From the NCBI GenBank assembly GCA_020724125.1, contig DYHM01000001.1:1-35325 (forward strand): 35,325 bases of DNA. Reading direction: 5' to 3'. This stretch comes from Patescibacteria group bacterium. Lineage in GTDB: Bacteria > Patescibacteriota > Minisyncoccia > Minisyncoccales > CG1-02-41-26. A model generated the notes under the pieces. It ran no database searches, was not told the origin of the DNA, and saw only the letters and a program-made list of their open reading frames with translations. Numbering within the stretch: the stretch's first letter is position 1; the number at the start of each line of letters is the position of its first letter. Positions 1,297 to 35,209 of this stretch are shown in pieces. A program made the position numbers and the translations under genes.

Positions 1297-2663
1297 GATT
1301 TGAGTTTTGAGTTTTTATTAGACTTAAACATAAGGTTTTTTAATTCTTCGCGAACCACTAATCTATCGTCCCACGGAATATGTTTTTCTTTAACAATCAT
1401 TGATTGTTCAGCGCCTTTGCCAGTAATTAAAACAATGTCATCAGGCTTGGCTAAAGATAAAGCTTTTCTGATTCCTTGTCTTCTATCTTCAATAACAAAA
1501 AGATTTTTTTGACGAATTTTTCCAGATTTCTCAGCCCCCCTAGCAATGTCTTCCAAAATTTCCTTAGGATCGTCATTGCAAGGATCTTCATTGCTAACTA
1601 TTACCTCGTCAGCCATTTTCGCCGCTGATTCACCCATTATTGGCCGTTTTGTCATATCCCTTCCGCCGCCCATCGCGCCTAATAAAATAATTATTTTAGA
1701 AAAAGGACTTTTCATTTCCTTGGCGGTCTCTAAAACATTAGTTAAACTTTCTTTTTCATGAGCATAATCAACAAAAACTCTAAAATTTTGACCATCATTT
1801 ATTTCTTCCAATCTGCCGGGAATGCCTTTTAATTCTTTTAATCCTTTATTTATTAAAAAATCGGGTATTCCTATCCATTGACCGATTATTATTCCCGGCA
1901 AGGCATTATAGACATTAAATCGGCCCGGCATTTCAATTTTAAAGACCGACCCCAAAACTTGAAATTTAAAGCCCAAATTTGTTTTCTCTATATTCTCAGC
2001 CATATAATCCGCCTCCTGAAAAATGCTAAATGTTATTTTTTTATCGGCTGGAAAATTTAAAAAATAATCAGCATGCTCGCTATCTTTATTAACAATTATG
2101 AGCTTTTCAATTTTCTTGGTTTTAATAGTTTTTCTGTCTTGATTTAGCGATTCAAATAATTTCCCCTTTGCTTTTTTATACTTTTCAAAACTTCCATCGT
2201 GAGCAAGAAGGTGTTCGGGCGAAAGATTGGTAAGAACAGCAACATCATAACAAAGACCAAGATGTCTATATTGTTTTATTCCCTCAGACGTTGTTTCAAT
2301 TACGCAATATTGACAATCGGCCCTTAACATTTGGTTAAGAATTTTTTGAAGATCAAAACGACCGGGCATAGACCTGCGCCATTTATTCAAAATTTCCTGG
2401 GTTCCAATCCGAATGTTGACTGTGCTAATAATTCCTGTTTTATAACCGCCAGCAGTCAGGCAGGCCCAGATAAAATTAACGGTTGAGGTTTTTCCCTTGG
2501 TTCCAGTAACGCCAATTACAATCATCTTTTTGGCTGGAAAATTATAAAGAATTGGTCCAAGAACCGCTAAAAAATAATGATACCAGGAAAAAATTTGTTT
2601 GGGAACAAATTTTTGGAGAATTTTTTTTAATTGAGCAAACAACATTGACAATGTAAGAAACAA
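1281..2663 (-). CDS. Mur ligase family protein, MurE-like UDP-N-acetylmuramoyl-tripeptide synthetase
   Basis: 460 aa with the GVTGTKGKTST P-loop typical of Mur ligases, DYAHEKESL, and a degenerate MurE DNPR-like SNEDP..DDP segment. The last codons (..KNSKLKSQKIK) are encoded by a repeat shared with 22971-22996. Confidence 0.75.
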   Translation of the reverse strand: MFLTLSMLFAQLKKILQKFVPKQIFSWYHYFLAVLGPILYNFPAKKMIVIGVTGTKGKTSTVNFIWACLTAGGYKTGIISTVNIRIGTQEILNKWRRSMPGRFDLQKILNQMLRADCQYCVIETTSEGIKQYRHLGLCYDVAVLTNLSPEHLLAHDGSFEKYKKAKGKLFESLNQDRKTIKTKKIEKLIIVNKDSEHADYFLNFPADKKITFSIFQEADYMAENIEKTNLGFKFQVLGSVFKIEMPGRFNVYNALPGIIIGQWIGIPDFLINKGLKELKGIPGRLEEINDGQNFRVFVDYAHEKESLTNVLETAKEMKSPFSKIIILLGAMGGGRDMTKRPIMGESAAKMADEVIVSNEDPCNDDPKEILEDIARGAEKSGKIRQKNLFVIEDRRQGIRKALSLAKPDDIVLITGKGAEQSMIVKEKHIPWDDRLVVREELKNLMFKSNKNSKLKSQKIK

Positions 2664-3404: not shown

Positions 3405-3626
3405 ATGAATTTTGAAATTTTGTCATTTGCTACTAAACACGACTGCGGACTCGCTCGCCCGGTAGTTACCAGCCAAGACGACGAGTTGGATATTGGTAAT
3501 GATGATGCTCATACAACGACCTTGCCTAAAGAAGAAGAAGAAGAAGAAGAAGAAATCCCCGAAACTGAAACGCCCGTAACCCCGGTAACCGAAGAACCCG
3601 ACGAAATATCCGACGAAGACTACTAA
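3405..3626 (+). CDS. Small, highly acidic low-complexity protein (73 aa), function unknown
   Basis: The ORF is framed by a consensus-like promoter and a strong terminator. It contains a perfect (GAA)8 run at 3531-3554 (poly-E) and an E/D/P/T-rich tail. It also carries the 11-mer gctcgcccggt (3453-3463), shared with the palindromic element at 26299. Confidence 0.4.
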   Translation: MNFEILSFATKHDCGLARPVVTSQDDELDIGNDDAHTTTLPKEEEEEEEEIPETETPVTPVTEEPDEISDEDY

Positions 3627-3640
3627 TAAAGAATCTTATG

Positions 3641-3674
3641 AAAAACCCCCTATAAAAAGGGGGTTTTTATTTTA
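3641..3674 (+). terminator. Rho-independent terminator
   Basis: aaaaaccccc-tataaaaa-gggggttttt hairpin followed by a T-run (tttttatttt). Confidence 0.8.
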
Positions 3675-10302: not shown

Positions 10303-10319
10303 TAATGTTCATTTATAAG

Positions 10320-10424
10320 ATAACGATACGTTAGTTGGTAATTTTAATTAGTTTTAAATCAATATCTTTATTCTCTTTTAGGCATTGAGCTGGTGTTTTG
10401 AAATTTAATCTTTTTAATCTTGTA
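10320..10424 (-). mobile_element. Truncated inverted copy of the right end of the IS481-like element at 15220-16209
   Basis: By hand alignment, about 105 nt match the reverse complement of about 16105-16209 with only about 6 mismatches. The match includes the terminal TAACGATACGT. Confidence 0.8.
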
Positions 10425-10568
10425 TTCACGCATAAAGATGATGCGTAATAAGGTTTTCCGTAAATTTCCGGCTCTTTCTAACGCAATTTTATTAGTAAAA
10501 TTAACGCAAAATTGCCATAAATTTTATTACGCGCTAAATTTAATGTTCGTTTAAATTATGTTTTGGCT

Positions 10569-10597
10569 GTTTAAATTTTGCTTCGCAAAATTTAAAC
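10569..10597 (-). terminator. 13-bp perfect hairpin just downstream of murG (no clear U-tract)
   Basis: gtttaaattttgc-ttc-gcaaaatttaaac. It shares ttgcttcgca with the GC-rich module inside iorA. Confidence 0.35.
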
Positions 10598-10608
10598 AAT
10601 AAAAAAAT

Positions 10609-11748
10609 TCAAGAAACCCTATTTTTATTAGAGAGTTGGGTGAAATACTCAATAAGATAAGAGGCGATTATTTTGGCGGCATTAGACCGGCTGAAATTCT
10701 TGGAATTTTCTTTCATTTTAGTTAAAATATCCCGACGGGAAAATAGATGCTTTAATTTAGTCAAAAAGAAATGCGGACTAAAATTACTTTCTTCAATTAC
10801 TTCCCCTCCTCCTTTTTCAGTAAAGATATAAGCATTTTTTAATTGATGATTTTGAGCAGATTGAGCTAAGGGGATCAAAAGGGCCGGTTTGCCGGCGGCA
10901 GATATTTCAAAGATAGCTCCGGCGCCGGCTCGGGAAATAATCAAATCAGCAACCACTAAGGCTTGTTTATAAAACTCTTCTTCTAAAAAAGGAAAGGGAT
11001 GATAATCTTTTTTAAGATCTTCATCGGTTAAAATCGCTTCGGCTTCTTTTTTAACTTCTAAAAAGTTTTTCCGACCGGTCTGATGAATTATTTCAAAATC
11101 TTTAAGAAAGGCTGGTAAAATTTCTAAAATTACTTCGTTAATTTTTTGAGCGCCCTGAGAGCCGCCTAAAATTAAAATAAGAGGTTTATTACCTTGAAGT
11201 TTAAAAAGTTTTTGAGCCTCTTTTTTGGAACCTTCTAAAATTTCTTGACGAACAGGATTGCCAACAACAATTCCTTTGTTTTTGTCCAAGGAATCAATCA
11301 AAGGAAAAGAAAGAAACACTTCCTGAGCCCATTTACTCTCAATTTTAGAAGCTAATCCAAAAACACTGTCTGATTCATGAAGAAAAAAGGGAATGCCAAA
11401 AATGTTTGCCCAAAAAGCAACAGGAAAAGAACCATAACCGCTTTTACTAAAAACCAGGTCTGGTCCCAAAAAGAATAACCAAAAGAAAGATTGAATTAGA
11501 CCAATGGGTAATTTAAAAATATCTAAAAAATTTTCCAACGAAAAATACCTTCTCAATTTACCAGTTAAAATTTTAATAATCCTTATTTCTTCTTTTTCTA
11601 ATAACCCTGAAATGTGTTCATTGAGATTCGGACCAATATAATAAGGTTTAAAGTTTAAATCAGGATAATTTTTTTTAATTTCACGAACAATGGCTAAAAA
11701 GGGAAAAATATGACCAGCAGTTCCGCCGCCAGTAAAAACAATTTTCAT
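10609..11748 (-). CDS. murG: UDP-N-acetylglucosamine--lipid I N-acetylglucosaminyltransferase MurG
   Basis: 379 aa with the N-terminal MKIVFTGGGTAGHIFP motif and a C-terminal GT28 region (GGSQGA.., SRAGAGAI.E). Confidence 0.9.
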   Translation of the reverse strand: MKIVFTGGGTAGHIFPFLAIVREIKKNYPDLNFKPYYIGPNLNEHISGLLEKEEIRIIKILTGKLRRYFSLENFLDIFKLPIGLIQSFFWLFFLGPDLVFSKSGYGSFPVAFWANIFGIPFFLHESDSVFGLASKIESKWAQEVFLSFPLIDSLDKNKGIVVGNPVRQEILEGSKKEAQKLFKLQGNKPLILILGGSQGAQKINEVILEILPAFLKDFEIIHQTGRKNFLEVKKEAEAILTDEDLKKDYHPFPFLEEEFYKQALVVADLIISRAGAGAIFEISAAGKPALLIPLAQSAQNHQLKNAYIFTEKGGGEVIEESNFSPHFFLTKLKHLFSRRDILTKMKENSKNFSRSNAAKIIASYLIEYFTQLSNKNRVS

Positions 11749-15219: not shown

Positions 15220-16209
15220 CTAACGGTACGTCATTGTGTATAATAAAAGACGTATGCAAATCAAATTACATAAATATGCTACCACAACTCCAGTTATAAG
15301 ACAAGCAATTGCCTCATCTTCCCTATCTGCCTATGCTTTAGCTAAACAATATGGCATTTCTTAAGATACAGCAAGAAAATGGAAATTTTTAGGAAAACAA
15401 GGTATTTTTAAAGACAGAAGTAGTCGTCCTCATAAACTTAACACTGACCTTATTTCAGAACAAGAAGATTTAATCTGTTTTGAGGGAAAACAATTCAAGA
15501 AAACAATTGAGGATATCTTCCTTACTCTGGAAGACAAAATCTCTAACCTCTATCCGATGAAAATCTACCGTTGTTTAAGGAGGCATGATCTTGCTACCCC
15601 TCCCTCTGATTTTATAGAAATGGAAAGGAAGATTAAGAAATTCAAGAGATACGGGATAGGCTATCTTCATATTGATCTTTTGCATGCTCCCAAGATTAAT
15701 AAGGAAAGAAGCTATATCTATACTGCCATTGACTGGGTGGCCAAGATTGCCTTTGTGATGTTAGGTAAAAGAAAAATCAAGGAAACTGGCGCCAAATTCC
15801 TAAAACAAGTCTTGAAATTCTATCCCTACAAGATAAACTATATCCTAACAGATAATGGTTTTGAATTTTTCTACAAGGCTTTACCTAAAAACAAGAGAAC
15901 CAAAAAGATTCATCCCCTTGATAAGATTTGCCAAGAGAATAAAATAGAACGCGGAACAATCAAGTTTAAACATCTTTGGACCAATGGAATGATAGAAAAC
16001 TTTCACGGAACAATTAAAGATAAAGCGTTGAAAAGATATTTGTTTGAAACAATATTTGAAATGAACGTTCACTTAATTGAATTCATTAATAATTACAATA
16101 CGAACGCAAGATTAAAAAGATTAAATTTCAAAACACCAGCTCAATACCTAAAAGAGAATAAAAACATTGATTTAAAACTAATTAAAATTACCAACTAACG
16201 TATCGTTAG
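15220..16209 (+). mobile_element. IS481-like insertion sequence (~990 bp) with imperfect terminal inverted repeats
   Basis: CTAACGGTACGT (15220-15231) versus the reverse complement of 16198-16209 (CTAACGATACGT). One transposase frame fills the interior. Confidence 0.7.
15254..16198 (+). pseudogene. IS481-family DDE transposase with a single in-frame TAA (15362-15364)
   Basis: ATG 15254 and ORF 15557-16198 are in the same frame. The N-terminal HTH reads ..AKQYGIS*DTARKW. DDE region motifs: LHIDLL, TAIDWVAK, ILTDNGFEF, WTNGMIENFHGTIK. Confidence 0.7.
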
Positions 16210-16316: not shown

Positions 16317-16742
16317 ATGCAACATTTTACTATTCATATTGACGGCAGTTCTCGCGGCAATCCAGGGCCGGCCGGGCTCGGCGTTTTGTTCGTCAATGAG
16401 AATAACGAGATTATAAAAGAATATTTTCAATTTCTTGGTCAAAAAACAAATAATGAAGCCGAATACCTGTCTTTAATTTTCGGTCTTAAAAAAGCCAAAC
16501 TTCTTTTGGGTAAGAAAAAAATAAAAAACGTCTCTATTGAAATAAGATCTGATTCTGAACTTTTGGTAAAACAAATGAATGGTCACTATAAAATAAAAGA
16601 ACCCAATATTCAAAAGCTTTTTTTAGAAGCTTGGAATTTAAAAATTGATTTTCCAAATCTAAAATTCATCTTAATTCCGCGGGAAGAAAATAAACAAGCG
16701 GATAAATTATCTAATCTTGCGTATGAAACTCATCGTAGTTGA
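16317..16742 (+). CDS. rnhA: Ribonuclease HI-type (RNase H fold) protein
   Basis: 141 aa with DEDD-like positions: IHIDGSSRGNPGPAG, NNEAEY, RSDSEL, NKQADKLSN. Confidence 0.8.
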   Translation: MQHFTIHIDGSSRGNPGPAGLGVLFVNENNEIIKEYFQFLGQKTNNEAEYLSLIFGLKKAKLLLGKKKIKNVSIEIRSDSELLVKQMNGHYKIKEPNIQKLFLEAWNLKIDFPNLKFILIPREENKQADKLSNLAYETHRS

Positions 16743-18894
16743 AAGTCCAACCAAAGCTAAAACCTTAAAAAAATTTTTAGGCAGGGATTATCAAATAACA
16801 GCCACCTTCGGTCATATTCGAGACTTGCCCAAAGCTGAATTTGGAATAGATATTGAAAATAATTTTCAACCAAGGTATGTTATTCCCTTAAAAGCAAGAA
16901 AAATAGTCTCATTTTTAAGGCAAGAGGTTAAAAAAAGCGATTTGGTAATTTTGGCTGTTGACTCTGATAGAGAAGGAGAAGCTATTGCTTGGCATTTCGT
17001 TCAGTCCTTAGGACTAAACGAAATCAAAAATCAAAAATTTCACCCGCCCAAATTTTTACCCGGCCAAATCTCAAAGAGACTTGGCGCGGGCGAAAAGAAA
17101 ACTTGGCCGGGCAAGCAAATCAAAAATTACGAACGAATTGTTTTTCATGAGATAACCAAACCGGCTATTGAGAAAGCACTAAGAAATCCGCGAGATATCA
17201 ATATGAACCTTGTTAATGCTCAGCAATCTCGAAGAATTTTAGATAGAATTGTGGGTTATAGTCTTTCTCCTTTTTTATGGAAAAAAATAAGCCGAGGCTT
17301 ATCAGCCGGCCGCGTCCAATCAGTGGCAGTCAGATTAGTTGTTGAACGAGAAAAAGAAATAGAAAATTTTAAACCACAAGAGCATTGGACAATCGTCGCT
17401 ACGCTTCTTAAAATCAAAAATCAAAATTTAAAAATCAAAAATAAGGGATTTGACGCTATTTTGGTTAAAAAAAACGGGAAAATAATTCCAAAATTAGGGA
17501 TTAAAACCAAAAAAGAAGCAGATGAAATTATTAATGACATAGAAGGGGCAGAATATAAAGTAATAAAAATTATCAAAAAAGAAATTAAGCGCAATCCCTT
17601 GCCGCCTTTTACAACAAGCGCTCTTCAACAAACCGCCTGGCAAAAATTTCATTGGCCGGCAAAATTTACAATGCAATTAGCCCAGGGTTTGTATGAAAAA
17701 GGATTAATTACTTATCACCGCAGCGATTCTTTAAATTTATCTGAACAAGCTATAGAAAAAGCGAAAAAATTTATTGAAGAAAATTATGGCCCAAATTATT
17801 GGCCTGGTTTTTTCAGGAAATATAAAACAAAAATCAAGGGAGCCCAAGAAGCCCACGAAGCGATTCGACCAACCAGCTTAAATTTTATCCCTCAAAACTT
17901 AGGAGGACAAGCGCCTTCCAAAGATAAAAATACCGAAAAATTATATGATTTAATTTGGCGAAGATTTATAGCCTGTCAAATGAAAGAAGCAAGTTTCGAT
18001 TCAACAATGGTTGAGATTGAAACTGAAAATTCAAAATCAACGTATTTATTCCGCGTCAATGGTCAAGTTCTAAAATTTGACGGTTTTTTAAGGGTCTATC
18101 CCCTGAAATTTATTGAAGCTGAATTGCCAAATTTAGCGGAAAAAGAAATTTTAAGATTAATTAAAGCATTTTCTTCTCAACATTTTACTCAACCGCCTCC
18201 CAGATACAACGAAGCCAGTCTTATTAAGGCCTTGGAAGAAAATGGAATTGGCCGACCCTCTACATATGCGCCCATTCTTTCAACTATTCAGGGAAGAAAT
18301 TATATTATTAAAGATGAACAAAAAAGATTTCAACCAACTGAAATTGGTTTAATGACGAACAACCTTTTAACCGCTCATTTCCCGAGTATCGTTGATATTG
18401 AGTTTACCGCCCAAATGGAAGAAAAATTAGATGAAATCGCCCAAGGGGAAAAAGAATGGACCTCGGTGATAAAAGAATTTTATTGGCCATTTGAAAAAAA
18501 TCTTCAAAAGAAATATCAGGAAATTTCCAAAAAAGAAATCGCTGAACAGAAAACCGAAAAAAAGTGCCCGGAATGCAAAAGCGAGCTTTTAATAAAATTT
18601 GGAAGGTTTGGCAGGTTTTATGCTTGTTCTTCTTTTCCTAAATGCCGCTACACAGCTTCATTAAAAAATACCGGTTTAGGTATTAAATGTCCAAAATGTC
18701 AAACAGGCGAAATTTTTGAAAAAAAAACCAAAAAACAAAAAATTTTTTATGGTTGCTCTGATTGGCCAAAGTGCGACTTTGCTTTATGGGATAAACCATC
18801 TGGCGAATTTTGCCCAAAATGCAAATCGCTTTTAATTGAAACCAAAAATAAGCGGTTAAAATGTTCAAACAAAGAATGCGGCGCTCCCCGCTAA
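16723..18894 (+). CDS. topA: DNA topoisomerase I
   Basis: Toprim domain (LIVVESPTKAKT, DSDREGEAIAWH), active-site ITYHRSDS, and three C-terminal Cys4 zinc ribbons. ATG 16723 is preferred over the track TTG 16717. The gene overlaps the rnhA 3-prime end. Confidence 0.95.
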   Translation: MKLIVVESPTKAKTLKKFLGRDYQITATFGHIRDLPKAEFGIDIENNFQPRYVIPLKARKIVSFLRQEVKKSDLVILAVDSDREGEAIAWHFVQSLGLNEIKNQKFHPPKFLPGQISKRLGAGEKKTWPGKQIKNYERIVFHEITKPAIEKALRNPRDINMNLVNAQQSRRILDRIVGYSLSPFLWKKISRGLSAGRVQSVAVRLVVEREKEIENFKPQEHWTIVATLLKIKNQNLKIKNKGFDAILVKKNGKIIPKLGIKTKKEADEIINDIEGAEYKVIKIIKKEIKRNPLPPFTTSALQQTAWQKFHWPAKFTMQLAQGLYEKGLITYHRSDSLNLSEQAIEKAKKFIEENYGPNYWPGFFRKYKTKIKGAQEAHEAIRPTSLNFIPQNLGGQAPSKDKNTEKLYDLIWRRFIACQMKEASFDSTMVEIETENSKSTYLFRVNGQVLKFDGFLRVYPLKFIEAELPNLAEKEILRLIKAFSSQHFTQPPPRYNEASLIKALEENGIGRPSTYAPILSTIQGRNYIIKDEQKRFQPTEIGLMTNNLLTAHFPSIVDIEFTAQMEEKLDEIAQGEKEWTSVIKEFYWPFEKNLQKKYQEISKKEIAEQKTEKKCPECKSELLIKFGRFGRFYACSSFPKCRYTASLKNTGLGIKCPKCQTGEIFEKKTKKQKIFYGCSDWPKCDFALWDKPSGEFCPKCKSLLIETKNKRLKCSNKECGAPR
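17019..17129. repeat. In-frame repeat insertion in topA: GC-rich palindromic module flanked by aaatcaaaaatt direct repeats
   Basis: aaatcaaaaatt occurs at 17028-17039 and 17117-17128. The core 17058-17096 aligns at about 33 of 38 positions with the intergenic hairpin at 26303-26340. It encodes ..EIKNQKFHPPKFLPGQISKRLGAGEKKTWPGKQIKNYE. Confidence 0.75.
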
Positions 18895-22581: not shown

Positions 22582-22865
22582 AGATAATTATTTTTAAAAT
22601 TAAAAAAGGTTTAATTAAGACATTAAAGAAAATCTGGCAAAATGTTTTTTTGCTCCTCTTTTTATTCTTAATTTTAGATTTAATAATTGGAGTAGGTTTC
22701 TTTTTAAAATATTATTCTGAACAAGAAAAACCAGAAGATTATTCGATTTTAAGGGTTAATCAGGATTTATTAGATAACTTTTCTTCTGAATTTCAAAAGC
22801 GAGAAGAAAATTTCAAAAATACCGAAAATAAAACTTACCTTGATCTCTTTAGGGCTGAATTTTGA
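22578..22865 (+). CDS. Small membrane-anchored protein, last gene of the pil operon
   Basis: 95 aa with one TM helix. Its start overlaps the pilO stop (ATGA). Confidence 0.45.
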   Translation: MKIIIFKIKKGLIKTLKKIWQNVFLLLFLFLILDLIIGVGFFLKYYSEQEKPEDYSILRVNQDLLDNFSSEFQKREENFKNTENKTYLDLFRAEF

Positions 22866-23029
22866 ATTTTAAATTTCGAATTTCGAATGAATTTCGAATT
22901 TTGAATTTTTTAAAATTAAAAATTAAAAATTATTTAAAAATTAAAAATTAGAAATTAGAAATTATTTAACTTTTGAGATTTGAGTTTTGAGTTTTTTGGT
23001 CTTTGGTTTGTGTTTTTGGTTTTTGGTTT
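22860..23029. repeat. Intergenic block of period-7/8 A/T-rich tandem repeats
   Basis: Successive runs of gaatttc/gaatttt, aattaaaa, agaaatt, gagtttt and ggttttt. It contains a 26-mer (22971-22996) identical to 1291-1316. Confidence 0.85.
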
Positions 23030-24781
23030 TTAATTTAATCTTACACAGGGTCTTCGGGCAATAATTAAAGATGGTTCTTTCTTTTTTAGAAACACTCTAA
23101 TCGTTTTAACCATTTCTTTTATTTTAATTGGATCAATTATTTTTAAATTTTTTACACCGCAGGCTCGAATAATTTCTTCAATTTTAATTATTGGTAAATT
23201 ATCGCTTTTTATGCCGAGATGGGGCTGTTGACCGGTCATCGCTGTTGTCTGGTTATCCATCAAAATAATTAAAGGATTAGATTGGTTACGAACGACATTG
23301 ATTAAAGCGGGAATGCCAGCATGAAAAAAGGTTGCATCGCCAATAAAAGCAATTAATTTTTGTCCATTAGTTGATTTTTTGATTCCATGAGCAATACCAA
23401 TTGAAGAACCCATGCAGGAAAGATAATCTTGAAGAAAATGAGGCGGAAAGCCGGCTAACATATAACAACCAATGTCGCCGCCGAAAATCACTTCTTGGGG
23501 TTTAACCGCTTTTTTTATCGCCGAGAAAACAAACCAATAAGGACAACCAGGACAAAGTTGAGGATATCTTTTTGGAATTTCTAATTCCCAATTCCTAATT
23601 TCTAATTTCTCCTTTAATTGTCCTGCCCGCTTTGCTTCGCAGGGCGAAGCAGACAAATAATTTTCAATTTCTAGTTTTTTATATTTTTTATTAAGAAGTT
23701 TAGCAATAGCCGCGATAATCTGGTCATGGTTTAATTCGCCAATTTCTGGCAATAATTTTTTACCAATGATTTCTAAACCCGGGTTAACATCTTTGGCTAA
23801 TCTCTGAATTTCTTTTTCTAAACAGGGCTCCAATTCTTCGACAACAAGCACCTTTTTAAAATTTTTAATAAAGTTTTTAATTTTTTTCTCCGGCAAGGGA
23901 TAAAAAAATCCTAATTTCAAAATCGGCAAAGAAAGGTTAATTTCCTTTAAGACCTCTCGCGCGTGAAGATAAGAAATCCCTGTTGTTATGATTCCTAATT
24001 TTTTTGTTTGTTTTCTTTTATAACGTGGAATGGATGCGCAATTTTCAACTTTATTTATTGAAGAATTTTCAGAAAATTCCTGAATGTTGCTAATTTTAGC
24101 GAGTAATTTTTTCTTCATTTCTAAAATCCTTGACGGCATCGCGGCAAATTTTTCAGAAGAAGTTTTTTTAAATTCTTTTATATCAAAATTGGGTTTAAAT
24201 TTGTTTAATTTTAAATTTTCTAATTTCACCAATTCTCTTTGATGAGCCACTCGAGTGGTTGTTCTAATCAAAATAGGGATTTTAAATTTCTCCGAAAGTT
24301 CAAAAGCTAATTTTGTAAAATCCTTAGCTTCTTGAGGGCTGGCTGGTTCTAAGGTGGGAAGATGAAATAAGTAAGAATAAAACCGGGAATTTTGTTCTGA
24401 TTGAGCGGAACTGTGGCAGGATGGATCGTCGCCAACAATGATAACCATTGAACCATTAGAGCCGGTATACAAAAATGGCAATAAAGCGTCTGAACAAACA
24501 TTAAGGCCGAAATGCTTCATAACCACCAGGGTTTTTAAACCAGCAAAAGAAGCACCAATCCCGGCTTCTAATACAACCTTTTCATTGACGGAATACTCAA
24601 AATATAAATTTTGAATTTTGAATTTTGAGTTTTGAATTTTATAAAAAATATCTCCAATTTCCGAGGATGGCGCGCCGGGATAGGTAGTCGCAAATTGAAC
24701 ACCCGCCTCTAAACTGGCCCTGACAATCGCTTCATTGCCAAGAAAAATTACTTTGCCTTTATTTTTTAAAATTTCTTCCAT
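23030..24781 (-). CDS. iorA: Indolepyruvate:ferredoxin oxidoreductase alpha subunit-like (IorA), apparently lacking the C-terminal 4Fe-4S domain
   Basis: 583 aa with FLGNEAIVRASLEAGVQFATTYPGAPSSEI, CPGCPY and GGDIGCY (TPP domain). The protein ends ..RRPCVRLN at the edge of the repeat block. No iorB lies adjacent. Confidence 0.7.
   Translation of the reverse strand: MEEILKNKGKVIFLGNEAIVRASLEAGVQFATTYPGAPSSEIGDIFYKIQNSKFKIQNLYFEYSVNEKVVLEAGIGASFAGLKTLVVMKHFGLNVCSDALLPFLYTGSNGSMVIIVGDDPSCHSSAQSEQNSRFYSYLFHLPTLEPASPQEAKDFTKLAFELSEKFKIPILIRTTTRVAHQRELVKLENLKLNKFKPNFDIKEFKKTSSEKFAAMPSRILEMKKKLLAKISNIQEFSENSSINKVENCASIPRYKRKQTKKLGIITTGISYLHAREVLKEINLSLPILKLGFFYPLPEKKIKNFIKNFKKVLVVEELEPCLEKEIQRLAKDVNPGLEIIGKKLLPEIGELNHDQIIAAIAKLLNKKYKKLEIENYLSASPCEAKRAGQLKEKLEIRNWELEIPKRYPQLCPGCPYWFVFSAIKKAVKPQEVIFGGDIGCYMLAGFPPHFLQDYLSCMGSSIGIAHGIKKSTNGQKLIAFIGDATFFHAGIPALINVVRNQSNPLIILMDNQTTAMTGQQPHLGIKSDNLPIIKIEEIIRACGVKNLKIIDPIKIKEMVKTIRVFLKKKEPSLIIARRPCVRLN
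23574..23660. repeat. In-frame repeat insertion in iorA: A/T-rich period-8 array plus GC-rich hairpin
   Basis: ggaatttctaattcccaattcctaatttctaatttc, then cctgcccgctttgcttcgcagggcgaagcag (stem gcttcgc/gcgaagc). It shares gggcgaagc with 26332-26342 and encodes ..SASPCEAKRAGQLKEKLEIRNWELEI. Confidence 0.65.
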
Positions 24782-24936: not shown

Positions 24937-25030
24937 ATATAAGTTCAAAGTTCAAAGTTTAAAGTTATAAATAAAAATAAGTTCTTAAAAGTTCAATTAG
25001 AGGTTTTGAATTTTGGATTTTAAATCTTAA
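24937..25030. repeat. A/T-rich period-8 repeats between the two tRNAs
   Basis: aagttcaa agttcaaa gtttaaag .. ttttgaat tttggatt. Confidence 0.6.
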
Positions 25031-25345: not shown

Positions 25346-26161
25346 ATGTCTTATTGGGTCGAAAATCTCTTAAAAGAAGAAAAAAAATTATGGCGAAAGG
25401 GATATAAATATGTGGTTGGCCTGGATGAGGCGGGCCGCGGTCCGCTCGCCGGCCCGGTGGTGGCGGCAGCCGTAATAATAAATCCAAGGCCTGAAACCAA
25501 AAATAAAATAAATTCAAAATTCAAAATTAAGAATTTAAAATTAAAAACAGGCCAAATTCAAAATTTAAAATTTTATTCAGATAAATCTCCTAAAACAAAA
25601 ACCCAATTAAAAGCAGAATTATTTACTTGGGTGAAAAAATCAGAAATTAGAGATTCTAAAAAATTAGCGCCGAAAAAACGAGAAGAACTTTACCAAATTT
25701 TAATCCATCATCCTCAAATAAAATGGGGGATAGGCAGGGTGTCGGAAAAAACAATAGATAAAATCAATATCTTAGAGGCAACGAAATTGGCAATGATTAA
25801 GGCGATAAAAAATTTGGGAATAAAACCAGATTTTTTAATCCTTGATGGAAATTTTGAATTAAAGCTAAAAATCAAAAATTCAAAATTCAAAAACATAATT
25901 CAGAAATTAAAACATTCTCGGTTTAATAAAACAAAAAGTATTATTAAGGCTGACGAAAAAGTTCTTTCTTGTCTTTTGGCAAGCATTATTGCTAAAGTAA
26001 CTCGCGATAAAATAATGGAAAAACATAATACAAAATTTCCTCAATATGGATTTAACAGACACAAGGGCTATCCTACTAAATTTCATTTAGAAATGTTAAA
26101 AAAATATGGGATTTGTAAAATTCATCGAAAAACATTCAACCCTGCTAAACATTTTGTTTAA
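25346..26161 (+). CDS. rnhB: Ribonuclease HII with two low-complexity insertions
   Basis: GLDEAGRGPLAGPVVAAAV, DSKKL, ILDGN and ASIIAKVTRD..HKGYPT motifs. ATG 25346 is preferred over the track TTG 25328. Insertions lie at about 25481-25645 and about 25851-25945. Confidence 0.9.
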   Translation: MSYWVENLLKEEKKLWRKGYKYVVGLDEAGRGPLAGPVVAAAVIINPRPETKNKINSKFKIKNLKLKTGQIQNLKFYSDKSPKTKTQLKAELFTWVKKSEIRDSKKLAPKKREELYQILIHHPQIKWGIGRVSEKTIDKINILEATKLAMIKAIKNLGIKPDFLILDGNFELKLKIKNSKFKNIIQKLKHSRFNKTKSIIKADEKVLSCLLASIIAKVTRDKIMEKHNTKFPQYGFNRHKGYPTKFHLEMLKKYGICKIHRKTFNPAKHFV

Positions 26162-26428
26162 AAAATTCTCCAATTTTCAATGACCAATTTTCAATGAATT
26201 CCGAGGGAAAAATTCTAAATCCAAAATCTTAAATCCTAAACAAATCCGAAATCCCAAATCCCAATGACCAAAACTCGTCTGTTTTGAACTTTGAATTTGC
26301 TCGCCCGGTCAAATTTTCAAAGAAAATTTGGCCGGGCGAAGCTGGTAAACATTTAGAGTTTTGAATTTAGGATTTTATTGTGGAGTTTGATTGTAAATTG
26401 AAAATTGATAATTGAAAATTAATTTTTT
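26162..26428. repeat. Intergenic repeat block: period-8 A/T-rich arrays around a GC-rich hairpin
   Basis: ccaattttcaatga x2, then aaatcc/aaatccc runs, the hairpin at 26299-26342, then gttttgaatttaggatttt and aattgaaaattgataattgaaaatt. Confidence 0.8.
26299..26342. repeat. GC-rich palindromic module (17-bp stem, 5-nt loop), reference copy of a dispersed family
   Basis: tcgcccggtcaaatttt-caaag-aaaatttggccgggcga, with one G-U position. No U-tract follows on either strand. Confidence 0.8.
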
Positions 26429-27115
<687 letters not shown>

Positions 27116-28028: not shown

Positions 28029-31000
28029 ATGAGTATTCCAAAGAAATTTATTTCAGTTATTGTTTCTTTAGCTTTAGTGGCTGCTGTTTTACCGATTAGC
28101 AATACCCAGGCTATTACTGCTGACGAATTAAAGGCTCAAATTGAAGCATTGGCAAAACAATTAGCCGAATTACAACAACAATTGGTTCAGATAGAAAGCC
28201 CTGCTGCAACAGTTAGCGGTTGCGCCATTACTTCTTTTGACCGCAATTTAAAACAAGGAATGACAGGCGACGATGTCAAATGTCTTCAAGTTGTTTTAAA
28301 TAGCGCAGCAGATACCCAAGTGGTAAGCGAAGGCGCTGGTTCTCCTAACAGTGAGACCACTTATTTTGGTTCAAAAACCAGAATTGCAGTGGCTAAATTC
28401 CAAGAGAAGTATAGCGCTGATATTTTAGCGCCGCTTGGTTTAACAACCGGAACTGGCTATGTTGGGCTATCAACCAGAACTAAATTAAGTAGTTTATTGC
28501 CGGGAATTCCCGCTAAACCAGGAACTTCCACTGAACCGGTAATTCCCCCTAAACCAGCGGGAGCAGGTTTAACTGTAAGTTTAGCCGAAGGCGCTCCGGT
28601 TAGCGGCACTATAGTAGCGGGTCAGGCAACAGCTGATTTAGTCCGTTTTCTTTTTACCAATGGTGATGCGTCAGAAGTTAAAGTAACTAAATTGGTCTTA
28701 AAAAGAATTGGCGTTTCCGGGGATGACACTTTAGAAAATGTCTATCTTTTCGACGGCAGCGTAAGAATAACCGATGCCGCGAGCGTTTCCCAGAACACAG
28801 TTACTTTTGCCAATACCGCTGGTTTATTCTCTATTTCAGCTAAAGGAACGAAAAATATTAATGTTAAAGCAGACATTAAAACGGGCACTAGCGGCCAAAC
28901 AATAGGTATTCAGGTAGCTGGAGCCGCTGATGTTGTTTCTAACGCTAGCGCAATCGGGGGCAACTATCCGATTTCCGGCAATTTAATGACAATAGCCACA
29001 GCTACTTTAGCCGGGGCTGATTTCACTGGAGCAACTCTGCCAACCACCGCTAATATCGACCCAGCGGTTGATGTCTTGGCATGGCAGAGAACTTTAAATG
29101 TTTCCAATAGAGACATTTATTTGAATCGGATTGCTTTTAGGGAAATTGGTTCGGTTAATTACAGCGACTTGAAGAATTTCCGTCTTTATGTTGACGGAAC
29201 TCAAGTAGGAGCGACTGTTGAAACATTAGACAGTAATGGCTATGTTACCTTTACTCCAGCCGGCTCTTATAAATTAGCCACTGGCAGTCGGGTAATTAAG
29301 GTCTTGGCTGATGTTGTCGGCGGTTCTTCTAGAAATTTTAGTTTTTCATTAAGAAATGTCGCTGATATTGATTTGGTTGATTCAAGTTACAATGTTAATG
29401 TCCGACCATCAGTCGCAGGAGCTGCTTTTGTTTCTATTACGAGTGGCACCCAAGGGATTAATGCCGGCGCCATTACTGTTCAAAAAGCAAGCGATTCTCC
29501 TTCTGGCAATGTTATTAACAATGGCTCAGATGTGGTCTTGGCTAAATATACCTTAACTGCTTATGGCGAACCAGTTAAAATTGAAACCTTGAAGGCTGGA
29601 TTTACTTATACTGATAATAGTGGGGGTGAAAATGCCGCTGCGACATTGCGCAATGGAAAATTAATGGCTAATAGCGCTCAAGTGGGCAGCACTGCTACTT
29701 TAGTGTCAGCTGGCACAACTTTCACCACTAATTTAACTGTGACCCCAGGCGCCCCGGTTACCTTAGAAATACGAGCTGATATCTATGATAATGATGGAAC
29801 CGGCGCTATTGATAACACTGACACCATTAAGGCAAATTTAATTGCTGGCACAAGCAACGCGCAAGGAACCAATTCTTTAAATTTAATTAATGTTCCTTCA
29901 GCAAATAATGAAGCTAACACCCTAACAGTGGCTACTGGCGCAATCACTTTGGCAAAAACTTCTTCTTATGTTAACCAGAGCTTAACAGTGCCCCAGACCG
30001 CTTACAAACTCGGTTCCTTTATTCTAACCGGCAATACAACCGAAGATGTTAATATCAACACTCTTCAGGTTAACTTTACCGGCGCTGACGCATGGACTGT
30101 AACTGGTTTAAGCGATGTCTATCTAAAATATGGCGCTAATACCACTACTATTAAATCAACAGTGGGAGCAACTGGTAATACTTGGTCGGTTAATTATACC
30201 ATAGCCAAAAATACTAATGTCACGATTGAGGTTTATGCCAATATTGCCAGCACTGTCTATAATGGAGGTGCTGCTGACACAATGATTACCTCGCTCTTGG
30301 TTGTTGGCACAACCGCTTCTTCCGGTCAAACAGTAAACACTAATAACGGCTTGGTTTTAGCTGGTCAAACAATGACTGCTACTGTTGGCGCTATCGCTTC
30401 AGCGTTAGACGCTTCAACCCCAACAGCCAAAATAGTGGCTGGTAATACCACCCAAGATGCGGCTGTCTTTAAATTCACAACAACCAATGATAGTTATACT
30501 TTGACCCAGATAGTTGTTAAGGTTGTTGACGCAACCGCTGCTTCAACCATTCAAAATGTAATTTTGAAGGACGGAGCGACAACCATAGGAACAGCGCCTA
30601 TCAGTGGAACTTCAGCCACTTTTAGTGGTTTAACAGTTCCAGTAGCAGCTAATACCTCTAAGGCCTTAACCATTGCTTTGCAATTAGGAAGCATTGGCGT
30701 TGGCGCTGGCGCAAGCGGCGCTAATATTCAGGTAACCTTAGATTCTTTCAAGGCAAATAATTCCCAAGGAGTTGAGACTGTTGATCTTACTGATCGAGCG
30801 GCTAATGTAACCTATGCCTACAAGGCAATCCCAACCATCAGCAATGTTGGTCTACCTTCAACTGCCTTATTAACCGGCACAGTTACCTTATCTAAATTTA
30901 CCATTGTTAACACTGGCAATACTATTGGTTGGAAGAAACTTATTTTTACTGTTAACAAAACCGGCGGCGCTGCTGGCGACCCGGCAATTTCCAACGCCAA

Positions 31001-31367
31001 GATTTATGATTATGACACCAACACTGAAATTTCTGGCGCTGTTACAATTACGACTTTAGGCGAGCTTAATACCGCTGGCGCAATTGCTTTTGTAGCTACT
31101 GCTGAACAACAAGTTAGCGGAACCAAGACATTTGTTTTGAAGGCTGATGTAGCTGGCTCATTAGTTACTGGCGACAATGTTAATACCAACATTACTCAAC
31201 CATCAGGCTATGTTGCTCCAGATACTTATGCCAATGTGGCCCTTACTGCAGCTTCCCTTGCCTGGACTGACCAATCAGCCGCAAGCCATTCAGAAACAAC
31301 TACTGACTGGAACAATGGTTATCTGGTCAAGAACTTACCAACTGATTCCCAGACCCTAACCAAATAA
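28029..31367 (+). CDS. Secreted peptidoglycan-binding beta-repeat surface protein (S-layer-like candidate), 1112 aa
   Basis: Signal peptide (..LPISNTQA/IT), coiled-coil (ELKAQIEALAKQLAELQQQL), and a PG_binding_1-like domain (LKQGMTGDDVKCLQVVLN..FGSKTRIAVAKFQEKY). A Pro-rich linker follows, then about six divergent ~150-aa A/T/V/G/S/N-rich modules with no Cys. Confidence 0.7.
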   Translation: MSIPKKFISVIVSLALVAAVLPISNTQAITADELKAQIEALAKQLAELQQQLVQIESPAATVSGCAITSFDRNLKQGMTGDDVKCLQVVLNSAADTQVVSEGAGSPNSETTYFGSKTRIAVAKFQEKYSADILAPLGLTTGTGYVGLSTRTKLSSLLPGIPAKPGTSTEPVIPPKPAGAGLTVSLAEGAPVSGTIVAGQATADLVRFLFTNGDASEVKVTKLVLKRIGVSGDDTLENVYLFDGSVRITDAASVSQNTVTFANTAGLFSISAKGTKNINVKADIKTGTSGQTIGIQVAGAADVVSNASAIGGNYPISGNLMTIATATLAGADFTGATLPTTANIDPAVDVLAWQRTLNVSNRDIYLNRIAFREIGSVNYSDLKNFRLYVDGTQVGATVETLDSNGYVTFTPAGSYKLATGSRVIKVLADVVGGSSRNFSFSLRNVADIDLVDSSYNVNVRPSVAGAAFVSITSGTQGINAGAITVQKASDSPSGNVINNGSDVVLAKYTLTAYGEPVKIETLKAGFTYTDNSGGENAAATLRNGKLMANSAQVGSTATLVSAGTTFTTNLTVTPGAPVTLEIRADIYDNDGTGAIDNTDTIKANLIAGTSNAQGTNSLNLINVPSANNEANTLTVATGAITLAKTSSYVNQSLTVPQTAYKLGSFILTGNTTEDVNINTLQVNFTGADAWTVTGLSDVYLKYGANTTTIKSTVGATGNTWSVNYTIAKNTNVTIEVYANIASTVYNGGAADTMITSLLVVGTTASSGQTVNTNNGLVLAGQTMTATVGAIASALDASTPTAKIVAGNTTQDAAVFKFTTTNDSYTLTQIVVKVVDATAASTIQNVILKDGATTIGTAPISGTSATFSGLTVPVAANTSKALTIALQLGSIGVGAGASGANIQVTLDSFKANNSQGVETVDLTDRAANVTYAYKAIPTISNVGLPSTALLTGTVTLSKFTIVNTGNTIGWKKLIFTVNKTGGAAGDPAISNAKIYDYDTNTEISGAVTITTLGELNTAGAIAFVATAEQQVSGTKTFVLKADVAGSLVTGDNVNTNITQPSGYVAPDTYANVALTAASLAWTDQSAASHSETTTDWNNGYLVKNLPTDSQTLTK

Positions 31368-31409: not shown

Positions 31410-31450
31410 AAACCAAAAACCGGCTTAAGCCGGTTTTTGGTTTATTTGTT
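31410..31450 (+). terminator. Rho-independent terminator
   Basis: aaaccaaaaaccggc-ttaa-gccggtttttggttt followed by atttgtt. Confidence 0.8.
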
Positions 31451-35149: not shown

Positions 35150-35209
35150 ATAATTAATTAAAGCGTCGGGGATTTTCCTTTTATAAAACAAGGATAAATC
35201 TGTTATCAC
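35150..35209. repeat. Inverted copy of window positions 1-61 (IS-end remnant)
   Basis: By hand alignment, the reverse complement of 1-61 matches 35150-35209 at about 52 of 61 positions, including ttataaaacaaggataaatctg exactly. Confidence 0.75.

What the first reader, a model, noticed from the sequence alone, without database searches (positions are those of the whole stretch)
17019..17129. GC-rich palindromic element family inserted in frame into essential genes (topA, iorA) and present between genes
The intergenic hairpin at 26299-26342 (17-bp stem) has a clear homolog inside the topA coding sequence. The stretch 17058-17096 aligns with 26303-26340 at about 33 of 38 positions, with extra half-copies of each arm on both sides. 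The reading frame stays open. As a result TopA carries about 45 residues between AIAWH and RIVFHEITK, where E. coli TopA, as I recall it, has about 12. A third copy at 23621-23652 shares the element ends (ttgtcctgcccg.. / ..gggcgaagcag) and sits in frame in iorA. The 11-mer gctcgcccggt also occurs inside the acidic mini-ORF (3453-3463). Every copy is flanked by period-8 A/T-rich repeats, and in topA the flanks are the direct repeat aaatcaaaaatt. The behaviour resembles the Rickettsia palindromic elements, which are known to insert in frame into protein-coding genes. I am not aware of this being described for this type of genome.
Basis: partly seen in the sequence, partly recalled or inferred. 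Interest (0 to 1): 0.75.

Follow-up and report, generated by a model that had tools for sequence, protein, structure and literature searches.

The report
In-frame palindromic repeats inside bacterial genes
A short GC-rich hairpin-forming DNA repeat lies in frame inside the topoisomerase I gene of an AT-rich candidate-phyla-radiation-type bacterium and again between two genes; it behaves like the REP/RPE selfish palindromes known from other bacteria, and I found no report of this for the group.

Summary
The core observation holds. topA (16723-18894) carries a 77-nt GC-rich insert (17040-17116) that keeps the frame open. It adds about 32 residues to a loop that is 14 residues long in 97 of 119 nearest orthologs.

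The insert is two nested copies of the 44-nt intergenic hairpin at 26299-26342. A covariance model of this family also finds copies in relatives. These are intergenic in L001 and L143, and in frame in a second IorA loop in L147.

The topA site is "empty" in three relatives, carrying A-rich heptamers only. In other relatives it holds different hairpins. One of these is a 60-nt double hairpin that recurs in leuS and tatD of another genome. Dispersed palindromes tolerated in frame are therefore real in this clade.

- The iorA insert (23618-23655) is a genuine lineage-specific hairpin insertion, but it is not demonstrably the same family (model E=1.7).
- The 11-mer at 3453 is at chance level.
- The flanking repeats have period 7, not 8.

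The best reading is a REP/RPE/GC-cluster-like non-autonomous element. The mobilising enzyme is unknown. Unexplained extras are the heptamer arrays and a covarying "coding palindrome" just upstream in topA.

The parts
16723..18894 (+). topA (DNA topoisomerase I) gene that hosts the insert
   Evidence: Pfam Toprim, Topoisom_bac and Zn_ribbon_Top1. PDB matches down to E 4e-145.
16994..17024 (+). 'Coding palindrome' (hairpin A) in the conserved HFVQSLGLNEI segment, directly upstream of the insert
   Evidence: 15-bp stem with 1 mismatch. Fold -13.6 kcal/mol, z -5.0. Over 7 orthologs, 84.6% of cells are paired and 7 of 13 pairs have changes on both sides; 0 of 500 shuffles reach this, and slid controls give 23-47%.
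17021..17039 (+). Left flanking A-rich heptamer array (AAATCAA x2.6), translated as EIKNQK
   Evidence: TRF period 7. The same array without a hairpin is found in L143, L144 and L145.
17040..17057 (+). Outer left arm of the nested element (TCACCCGCCCAAATTTTT)
   Evidence: 16/18 identical to the reverse complement of the intergenic right arm. Pairs with 17097-17111 in the minimum-energy fold.
17058..17092 (+). Inner hairpin, a second family copy sitting in the loop of the outer copy
   Evidence: Covariance model R1 gives 54.9 bits for 17052-17099; this was a training sequence. Alignments.
17093..17116 (+). Outer loop remnant, right arm and tail (AAAAGAAAACTTGGCCGGGCAAGC)
   Evidence: 22/24 identical to 26319-26342.
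17117..17128 (+). Right flanking heptamer unit and direct repeat (AAATCAAAAATT), translated as QIKN
   Evidence: Read directly from the sequence. The equivalent flank is present in L001.
26299..26342 (+). Canonical intergenic copy of the family, between rnhB and a sigma-70-family gene
   Evidence: 18-bp stem. Fold -32.2 kcal/mol, z -6.6. No T-run, so not terminator-like. No Rfam family. All three forward frames are open; two of three reverse frames have stops.
26210..26264 (+). Heptamer array (AAATCCT x7.9) 35 nt upstream of the intergenic hairpin; a further array lies at 26390-26420
   Evidence: TRF; distances.
23030..24781 (-). iorA-like gene (indolepyruvate:ferredoxin oxidoreductase alpha) hosting a separate hairpin insert
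   Evidence: Pfam POR_N and TPP_enzyme_C. Source names.
23594..23656 (-). Residues 376-396 (LSASPCEAKRAGQLKEKLEIR), absent from most orthologs. GC-rich hairpin core at 23618-23655.
   Evidence: More than 60% of 119 orthologs are gapped here. The linker is 41 aa against a mode of 17. Fold -16.6 kcal/mol, z -2.4. Model R1 gives E=1.7, so family membership is not shown.
23576..23610 (-). Heptamer array (AATTTCT x5 on the + strand), in frame next to the iorA hairpin
   Evidence: TRF; 8 nt from the hairpin.
3453..3463 (+). Exact 11-mer GCTCGCCCGGT. Listed only because the finding names it; it is most likely a chance or codon-driven match and not part of the element.
   Evidence: Score 22 is within the null, 95th percentile 25-26. 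Fold z -0.7. Not reported by model R1.

Best explanation
The topA insert and the intergenic hairpin are copies of a small non-autonomous palindromic repeat of about 44 nt. Its anatomy is a GC clamp, an A/T-rich centre CAAATTTTC-AAA-GAAAATTTG, and short conserved tails TT(C/G)... and ...(G)AAGC. It is of the REP / Rickettsia-RPE / mitochondrial GC-cluster kind.

SHOWN
- Copies occur at unrelated loci in this genome and in related Patescibacteria genomes.
- The orthologous topA site is empty in several relatives.
- One copy sits in the loop of another.
- Copies inside genes are in frame, free of stop codons, in the orientation whose three frames are all open, and located in variable inter-domain loops.

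INFERRED
- The element spreads by transposition or recombination. The extruded hairpin would be the recognised substrate. This would explain why stems stay paired while their sequence drifts, and why a hairpin loop is itself a target.
- It lands preferentially in, or is tolerated only in, the A/T-rich heptamer tracts that fill spacers and protein linkers in this genome.
- In essential genes only in-frame loop insertions survive selection. These would be translated as extra disordered residues, 32 in TopA.

UNKNOWN
- The mobilising enzyme.

The iorA insert is the same kind of object but probably belongs to another family.
For: - INSERTION STATUS. 97 of 119 TopA orthologs have 14 residues at the site; the window has 46, the longest. 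Solved TopA structures have no counterpart.
- EMPTY SITES. At DNA level L143, L144 and L145 carry heptamers only.
- FAMILY STATUS. Both arms match the intergenic copy at 16/18 and 22/24 (score 36 against a null maximum of 28). The arm pattern gives 3 hits against 0.1 expected.
- MODEL R1. An independent hit at L147 2459-2502 (E 3e-4) is an in-frame insert NSPQISKKFGRAD in another IorA loop that is absent from orthologs. The L001 and L143 intergenic copies score 1e-10 and 7e-9, but they were training sequences.
- CROSS-GENOME CONSERVATION. The L001 intergenic copy is 26/28 identical to the window copy, although the two TopA proteins are only 64% identical.
- ELEMENTS OF THIS KIND ARE DISPERSED IN THE CLADE. 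A double-hairpin element about 60 nt long is nearly identical in L003 topA and L143 leuS. It recurs in L143 tatD and at a second L003 topA site. These copies are in three frames or orientations.
- HAIRPIN LOAD. It varies strongly between genomes: 15 observed against 0.9 expected in L001, but 3 against 1.4 in L144.
- FLANKS. All three window hairpins lie within 35 nt of period-7 arrays, which cover 1.8% of the window.
- PROTEIN CONTEXT. The AF2 model shows insert residues 104-132 without secondary structure at pLDDT 28-45. The model is poor overall.
- LITERATURE PRECEDENT. Intragenic REP/RPE copies occupy linkers or loops (PMC3733652, PMC10969869). Yeast GC42 has constrained stems and shows cluster mergers (PMC4478555).
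Against: - Only two loci of the family are in the 35-kb window, and the rest of the genome could not be reached.
- No clean target-site duplication was found. The 12-nt repeats are 89 nt apart and belong to the array.
- No candidate transposase is linked to the element. The only transposase is an IS3-like remnant with unrelated ends.
- No presence/absence polymorphism between close strains was seen; the nearest TopA is 66% identical.
- The topA insert sits at the same position with the same flanks in L001. This fits long vertical inheritance as well as repeated insertion.
- An exact 19-mer scan of metagenome contigs found only chance hits.
- Sequence similarity of GC-rich strings in this genome is an unreliable signal. 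A conserved Sua5 WPGK motif reached score 40.
Confidence: 0.6

Rival explanations
1. In-situ palindrome genesis. Replication template switching, or hairpin-primed repair, at slippery A/T heptamer tracts creates and perfects local inverted repeats. Under this reading the hairpins are mutational products and not mobile elements.
For: - Many hairpins are unique in sequence: 26 singletons among 86.
- The topA insert looks like duplicated arms, L1 L2 loop R1 R2.
- The conserved coding segment upstream is itself a palindrome. Its symmetric changes alter amino acids: V/N, V/D, I/N, and Cys in L003. A mutational drive would explain this without selection.
- A similar coding palindrome occurs in IorA of L146 and L148.
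- Quasipalindrome template-switch mutagenesis is established in E. coli (my own knowledge).
Against: It cannot produce the same non-palindromic tails, loop and linkers at unrelated loci and in unrelated genomes. Examples are family 1 and the 60-nt double hairpin shared by topA and leuS.
Confidence: 0.15
2. A selected nucleic-acid structure. The hairpins, together with the upstream coding palindrome and the A-rich tract, would form a functional mRNA or DNA module. Possible roles are transcript stabilisation or processing, translational pausing at a domain boundary, a protein-binding site, or a supercoiling-sensitive cruciform in topA.
For: - Pairing is kept by compensatory change in hairpin A and in hairpin 1 of the double-hairpin family.
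- The family-1 sequence is about 90% conserved in non-coding DNA between genomes whose TopA proteins are 64% identical.
- Inserts sit at domain junctions.
Against: - Most orthologs lack any insert.
- The same loop holds unrelated sequences in different lineages.
- Copies occur in several frames, orientations and unrelated genes.
- No Rfam family matches.
- Constrained stems are also expected for a selfish hairpin element, as in GC42 (PMC4478555).
Confidence: 0.15
3. The intergenic hairpin is simply the rnhB transcription terminator or an operator, and its likeness to the topA insert is coincidence between GC-rich strings.
For: - It lies 140 nt downstream of rnhB.
- Other intergenic hairpins in the window look like terminators: 3641-3668 and 31410-31443.
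- A chance GC-rich match did occur elsewhere, at the Sua5 motif.
Against: - There is no T-run, and the terminator scan reports no site.
- Both arms, the loop and the tail match the topA insert in the same order.
- Related copies lie in other contexts.
Confidence: 0.05
4. The extra residues are an ancestral or adaptive protein segment, with selection acting on the peptide.
For: The frame is open and the segment lies in a loop.
Against: - It is absent from 97 of 119 orthologs and from all solved structures.
- The homologous DNA is read in different frames in different hosts.
- No other protein cluster carries the peptide. The single hit is an unrelated repeat protein.
Confidence: 0.03

Closest known systems
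Intragenic REPs (repetitive extragenic palindromes of the GTAG/CGTC superfamilies; PMC3733652)
   Same: - Stem-loops of 20-45 nt that are mostly intergenic.
- They are also found inside genes, notably DNA synthesis and repair genes.
- They often occur as dimers or grouped copies encoding 20-30 residues.
- They are thought to be tolerated in linkers or loops.
   Different: - The window copies have no GTAG or CGTC tag.
- No RAYT transposase is in view.
- The stem is longer (13-18 bp) and has an A/T-rich centre.
- Host phylum and sequence are unrelated.
- Copies here are embedded in heptamer arrays.
Rickettsia palindromic elements (RPE; reviewed in PMC10969869)
   Same: Palindromic repeat families inserted in frame into unrelated housekeeping genes. 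They are translated and compatible with the protein fold.
   Different: - RPEs are about 100-150 bp and encode a conserved peptide per family. Here the elements are 27-77 nt and are read in different frames.
- No sequence relationship was tested, because no RPE sequences were at hand.
- The host is a different phylum.
Yeast mitochondrial GC clusters (e.g. GC42; PMC4478555), including the optional in-frame cluster of var1 (my own knowledge)
   Same: - GC-rich palindromes of about 40 nt in a very AT-rich genome.
- They are flanked by A/T-rich DNA.
- The hairpin is kept by constraint on the stems.
- Clusters merge or nest.
- The mobilising mechanism is unknown.
- Occasional in-frame residence in a gene.
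   Different: - Organellar and eukaryotic, with no homology.
- GC42 has an AG target duplication that is not seen here.
- Copy numbers here are unknown.
Double-hairpin elements of Allomyces mtDNA and repetitive hairpin-forming elements of sponge mtDNA (cited in PMC4478555; PMC2800124)
   Same: Two adjacent hairpins with conserved linkers, dispersed and sometimes lying in genes. This matches the double-hairpin family seen in L003 and L143.
   Different: Mitochondrial. Seen here only in relatives, not in the window itself.
Coding palindromes of Nematomorpha mitochondrial genes (PMC6649704)
   Same: Inverted repeats whose two arms both encode conserved protein sequence. This matches hairpin A in topA.
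   Different: Those repeats are far longer, up to 284 bp. Here the stem is 10-15 bp and is restricted to one subclade.

Membership tests
REP (GTAG/CGTC-tagged) elements | Short palindromic unit (stem 5-13 bp, loop 2-20 nt) repeated in the genome | tested here: inconclusive
   The palindromic unit is present with a stem of 13-18 bp and a loop of 3-5 nt.
REP (GTAG/CGTC-tagged) elements | Unpaired GTAG or CGTC tag at one end | tested here: not met
   Neither window copy has a tag. One relative has GTAG and one has CGTC, each next to the stem and inconsistently placed.
REP (GTAG/CGTC-tagged) elements | Associated RAYT (Y1) transposase gene | tested here: not met
   No Y1 transposase was found among the window ORFs; only an IS3-like rve remnant. 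The whole genome was not available.
Rickettsia palindromic elements | Palindromic repeat of about 100-150 bp with a family-specific conserved peptide | tested here: not met
   Elements are 44 nt, or 77 nt when nested. Copies are read in different frames.
Rickettsia palindromic elements | In-frame insertion into unrelated housekeeping ORFs | tested here: met
   In-frame copies occur in topA in the window, and in iorA, leuS, tatD, sua5 and nadE in relatives.
Rickettsia palindromic elements | Sequence homology to RPE-1 to RPE-10 | not tested
MITE | Terminal inverted repeats and small size | tested here: met
   The whole element is an inverted repeat of 44-77 nt.
MITE | Target-site duplication | tested here: inconclusive
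   - The 11-12-nt direct repeats belong to the heptamer array and are 89 nt apart.
- The L003 insert is exactly 57 nt between two TTAAAAA units that also exist in the empty L143 site.
MITE | Parent IS with matching ends | tested here: not met
   The ends of the IS3-like remnant are unrelated to the hairpin.
Mitochondrial GC clusters | GC-rich palindrome in an AT-rich genome, with A/T-rich flanks, constrained stems, and merged or nested clusters | tested here: met
   The window is 32% GC. Flanking arrays are shown, compensated stems, and nesting. This is a functional analogy only; homology is excluded by host.
Intrinsic terminator | GC-rich hairpin followed by a T-run | tested here: not met
   No terminator-like site was reported at 26299-26342 or in 16900-17250.
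Any Rfam RNA family | Match at gathering score | tested here: not met
   Only two tRNAs were found in the window.

The most novel reading that the evidence does not exclude
The hairpin inserts, the A-rich heptamer arrays and the covarying coding palindromes may be three faces of one lineage-specific process acting on nucleic acid. One possibility is hairpin-guided single-strand transposition or repair that targets heptamer tracts and hairpin loops, with heptamer arrays left behind as footprints. Another is a structure-maintaining mechanism. Either would be strong enough to override amino-acid choice in essential genes such as topA. This would be a mode of protein-loop evolution peculiar to Patescibacteria, not ordinary REP-like hitch-hiking.
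Probability: 0.15. Interest if true: 0.8.

Novelty: new member of a known kind. Interest (0 to 1): 0.5.

Why it matters
- Candidate-phyla-radiation genomes are small and regarded as poor in mobile DNA. Here short palindromic repeats sit translated inside topA, iorA and, in relatives, leuS, tatD and sua5. This suggests selfish or structure-driven DNA shapes protein loops even in these genomes.
- It explains length heterogeneity and odd low-complexity or GC-rich peptides in their protein alignments.
- It warns annotators and structure predictors about non-protein-driven segments.
- It gives a tractable case of nested copies, empty sites and several families for asking how hairpin elements move without an obvious transposase.
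- The covarying coding palindrome in topA is a rare example of nucleic-acid pairing constraining, or driving, amino-acid change.

Tried and rejected
- GENOME_CONTIGS SCAN with GCCCGGYCAAN{8,24}TTGRCCGGGC. No Patescibacteria hit was seen among the rows shown.
- METAGENOME SCAN with the 19-mer AAAGAAAAYTTGGCCGGGC. All 18 hits were chance matches in contigs of 42-64% GC with no hairpin.
- VIRAL SCANS for family 1 and for the double-hairpin linker. They gave nothing, or only acidic-stretch coincidences.
- CHIMERIC PEPTIDE SEARCH with the translated element. The third found no candidate and did not recover even the window's own TopA, so it is uninformative.
- REPRESENTATIVE-LIBRARY SEARCH with the 30-aa insert peptide. 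The single hit is an unrelated tandem-repeat protein.
- EXACT LOOK-UP of the window TopA to obtain the source record. It is not on record and no name was returned.
- REJECTED HITS. Matches in L145 and L143 sua5 scoring 40 and 30 are the conserved KFLKKVWPGK motif, not elements.
- REJECTED READINGS. Frameshift or bypass signal: the frame is continuous and there is no slippery X XXY YYZ in register. Terminator. Known RNA family. Link to the neighbouring IS3-like remnant.
- STRUCTURE MODEL. The AF2 model of TopA was poor overall (pLDDT 56.6). It is used only for the local statement about the insert.
Full report
CONTEXT

The window is a whole 35,325-nt contig. The exact TopA protein is recorded on one contig of that length. 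GC content is about 32%. It carries dnaA, dnaN, rnpA, cell-wall genes, pilM/N, topA, iorA, rnhB and a sigma-70-family gene. The best TopA and IorA relatives are only 60-67% identical. Where they are named, they are Patescibacteria, Pacebacteria or Nealsonbacteria. The source is therefore a candidate-phyla-radiation-type bacterium with no close sequenced relative.

THE OBSERVATION

The intergenic hairpin 26299-26342 reads GCTCGCCCGGTCAAATTTTC-AAA-GAAAATTTGGCCGGGCGAAGC.
- It has an 18-bp stem with one G·T pair.
- It is the most stable 60-nt fold in the window (-32.2 kcal/mol, z -6.6).
- It is not followed by a T-run and is not called terminator-like.
- It matches no Rfam family.

In topA the stretch 17040-17116 folds into a nested structure of -30 kcal/mol (z -3.3).
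- An outer stem pairs 17043-17057 with 17097-17111.
- It encloses an inner hairpin at 17059-17090.
- The outer arms match the intergenic element best, at 16/18 and 22/24. The Smith-Waterman score is 36 against a maximum of 27-28 in 100 composition-matched or palindromic shuffles.
- The inner hairpin is a second copy (alignments).
- A 17-nt arm pattern with up to 3 mismatches hits three times against 0.10 expected.

IT IS AN INSERTION

- The frame is open.
- Against solved TopA structures, residues 101-135 have no counterpart: S. mutans 139->140 and E. coli 160->163.
- Among 119 nearest orthologs, 97 have 14 residues between AIAWH and RIVFHEIT. Eight have 21. The window has 46, the longest.
- An AF2 model is poor overall (mean pLDDT 56.6). 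It places residues 104-132 as a coil with pLDDT 28-45, between helix 83-95 and strand 136-139.

COMPARISON AT DNA LEVEL

Three relatives (L143, L144, L145) have an "empty" site made only of A-rich heptamers: GAAATTAAAAATCAAAAATTAAAAATTAAAAATTA, translated EIKNQKLKIKN.

L001 has a shorter palindrome, CCCCCATACCAAAATTTGTTATGGGGG, at the same position with the same flanks (tttca...caagcaaat).

L003 has, at that position, 57 nt containing two unrelated perfect palindromes.

L002 has a GC-rich palindrome three codons downstream.

The L003 element is nearly identical to a segment inside leuS of L143. Its form is AAAACCGAG, hairpin 1, CGAAGGTGAA, hairpin 2, GCCT. It recurs in L143 tatD and at a second site in L003 topA. 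Across these copies the frame or orientation differs, and hairpin 1 differs in sequence but is still paired. This shows that dispersed palindromic elements translated in frame exist in this clade.

THE WINDOW'S FAMILY ELSEWHERE

I built covariance model R1 from five copies.
- In the window it finds only the topA and intergenic copies. The next best hit is an AT-rich hairpin at 10559-10609 (E 0.08). iorA scores E 1.7, and 3453 is not listed.
- In 121 kb from relatives it recovers the two training copies. These are L001 intergenic, which is 26/28 identical to the window copy, and L143 intergenic.
- It also finds an independent hit in L147 (E 3e-4). This is an in-frame insert NSPQISKKFGRAD in a second IorA loop, absent from other orthologs.
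- The forward orientation of the element is open in all three frames. The reverse orientation has stops in two. The intragenic copies are forward.

A caution applies to sequence similarity alone. GC-rich strings in this AT-rich genome come mostly from Ala/Arg/Pro/Gly codons, and a conserved Sua5 motif (KFLKKVWPGK) reached score 40 by coincidence. I therefore rely on the two-arm, loop and tail match and on the model.

iorA

Residues 376-396 are missing from most of 119 orthologs. The linker is 41 residues against a mode of 17. The core 23618-23655 folds to -16.6 kcal/mol (z -2.4).

Other lineages carry other hairpins at the same point: L146, L147, L148, L162 and L163. Several have termini like TTC(A/G)CCC...GGGC(G)AAG. 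This hints at a looser superfamily.

Membership of the window's iorA insert in family 1 is not demonstrated.

FLANKS

The A/T-rich repeats have period 7. They cover 1.8% of the window, yet all three hairpins lie within 35 nt of one. They fill spacers and also lie in frame in topA, iorA and rnhB, always A-rich on the coding strand. The 12-nt direct repeats in topA are 89 nt apart and are array units, not a clean duplication.

AN UNEXPECTED EXTRA

The conserved segment just upstream (16994-17024, HFVQSLGLNEI) is itself a palindrome. In six subclade orthologs it stays paired through changes on both sides, some of which alter amino acids. Examples are GTT/AAC = V/N, GTC/GAC = V/D and ATT/AAT = I/N.
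- 84.6% of cells are paired.
- 7 of 13 pairs have double changes.
- 0 of 500 shuffles reach this.
- Slid controls give 23-47%.

A similar coding palindrome occurs in IorA of L146 and L148, but not in the window.

INTERPRETATION

The best-supported reading is a REP/RPE/GC-cluster-like non-autonomous palindromic element that is tolerated in frame in permissive loops (confidence about 0.6).

The literature supports the kind:
- Intragenic REPs, often dimers encoding 20-30 residues, are described in DNA synthesis and repair genes and are argued to sit in linkers (PMC3733652).
- RPEs insert in frame at high frequency (PMC10969869).
- Yeast GC42 shows constrained stems, mergers and an unresolved mechanism (PMC4478555).

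The defining tags and transposases of REPs, the size and peptide of RPEs, and a parent IS for a MITE were all tested and not met. I therefore file it as working like these elements and as a new family, not as a member of any named family.

Searches for Patescibacteria or CPR literature on such elements returned nothing relevant.

Rivals that cannot be excluded, at least for the coding palindromes, are local template-switch palindrome genesis and a selected RNA or DNA structure.

LIMITS

- No strain-level empty and filled alleles and no expression data are available.

Noticed in passing
window 17410-17442, 24607-24640, 25510-25572, 25867-25917, 22856-23031, 24941-25025, 26210-26264, 26390-26420: Period-7 A/T-rich arrays (AAAATCA, AAAATTC, TTTTGAG, AAATCCT and others) fill intergenic spacers. 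They also lie in frame in topA (KIKNQNLKIKNK, +7 aa against S. mutans TopA), iorA (KIQNSKFKIQN) and rnhB, where the Pfam match is split in two. They are always A-rich on the coding strand. The same heptamer-coded peptides recur patchily in orthologs; 8 of 119 TopA have exactly +7 aa, equal to 3 heptamers.
   Followed up: partly
window 16994-17024; L001 7782-7806; L003 4065-4089; L143 and L144 10275-10299: A conserved coding segment of topA is a palindrome whose pairing is kept by double changes that alter amino acids (7 of 13 pairs; 0 of 500 shuffles). A similar coding palindrome occurs in IorA of L146 and L148.
   Followed up: partly
L003 4108-4168 and 4940-4990; L143 18285-18345 and 19230-19300: A double-hairpin element of about 60 nt (AAAACCGAG, hairpin 1, CGAAGGTGAA, hairpin 2, GCCT) is shared by topA, leuS and tatD of two genomes. 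It is read in different frames or orientations.
   Followed up: partly
window 15260-16198 and 10308-10427: An IS3-like (rve) transposase remnant lies just upstream of an RNase H-like gene and topA. A 120-nt partial copy, 91% complementary, lies 5.7 kb away in inverted orientation.
   Followed up: partly
window 2-58 and 35152-35208: An inverted repeat of about 57 nt, roughly 85% matching, lies near the two ends of the contig. It may mark ends of another insertion sequence, or a larger element bounded by inverted repeats.
   Followed up: no
window 1291-1316 and 22971-22996: An identical 26-nt heptamer block, TTTTGAGATTTGAGTTTTGAGTTTTT, occurs at the 3' end of a Mur ligase gene and in the spacer next to iorA.
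   Followed up: no
window 26947-27058: Twelve tandem copies of a 9-nt unit (AAAAGGGTG, Gly-Glu-Lys type) start at the stop codon of the sigma-factor ORF.
   Followed up: no
window 28029-31367 and 31410-31443: A 1112-aa ORF has 42% GC against 32% for the window, which may indicate foreign origin. It is followed by a perfect 34-nt palindrome, AAACCAAAAACCGGCTTAAGCCGGTTTTTGGTTT.
   Followed up: no
window 10562-10590: An AT-rich hairpin downstream of murG is the best non-family hit of model R1 (E 0.08). It shares an 11-mer, TTTGCTTCGCA, with the iorA insert. That 11-mer contains GCTTCGC, the complement of the stable GCGAAGC mini-hairpin motif.
   Followed up: no
L003 6147-6827; L143 12242-12859; L146 12335-13009: Free-standing LAGLIDADG-like ORFs lie next to topA in three relatives but not in the window.
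   Followed up: no
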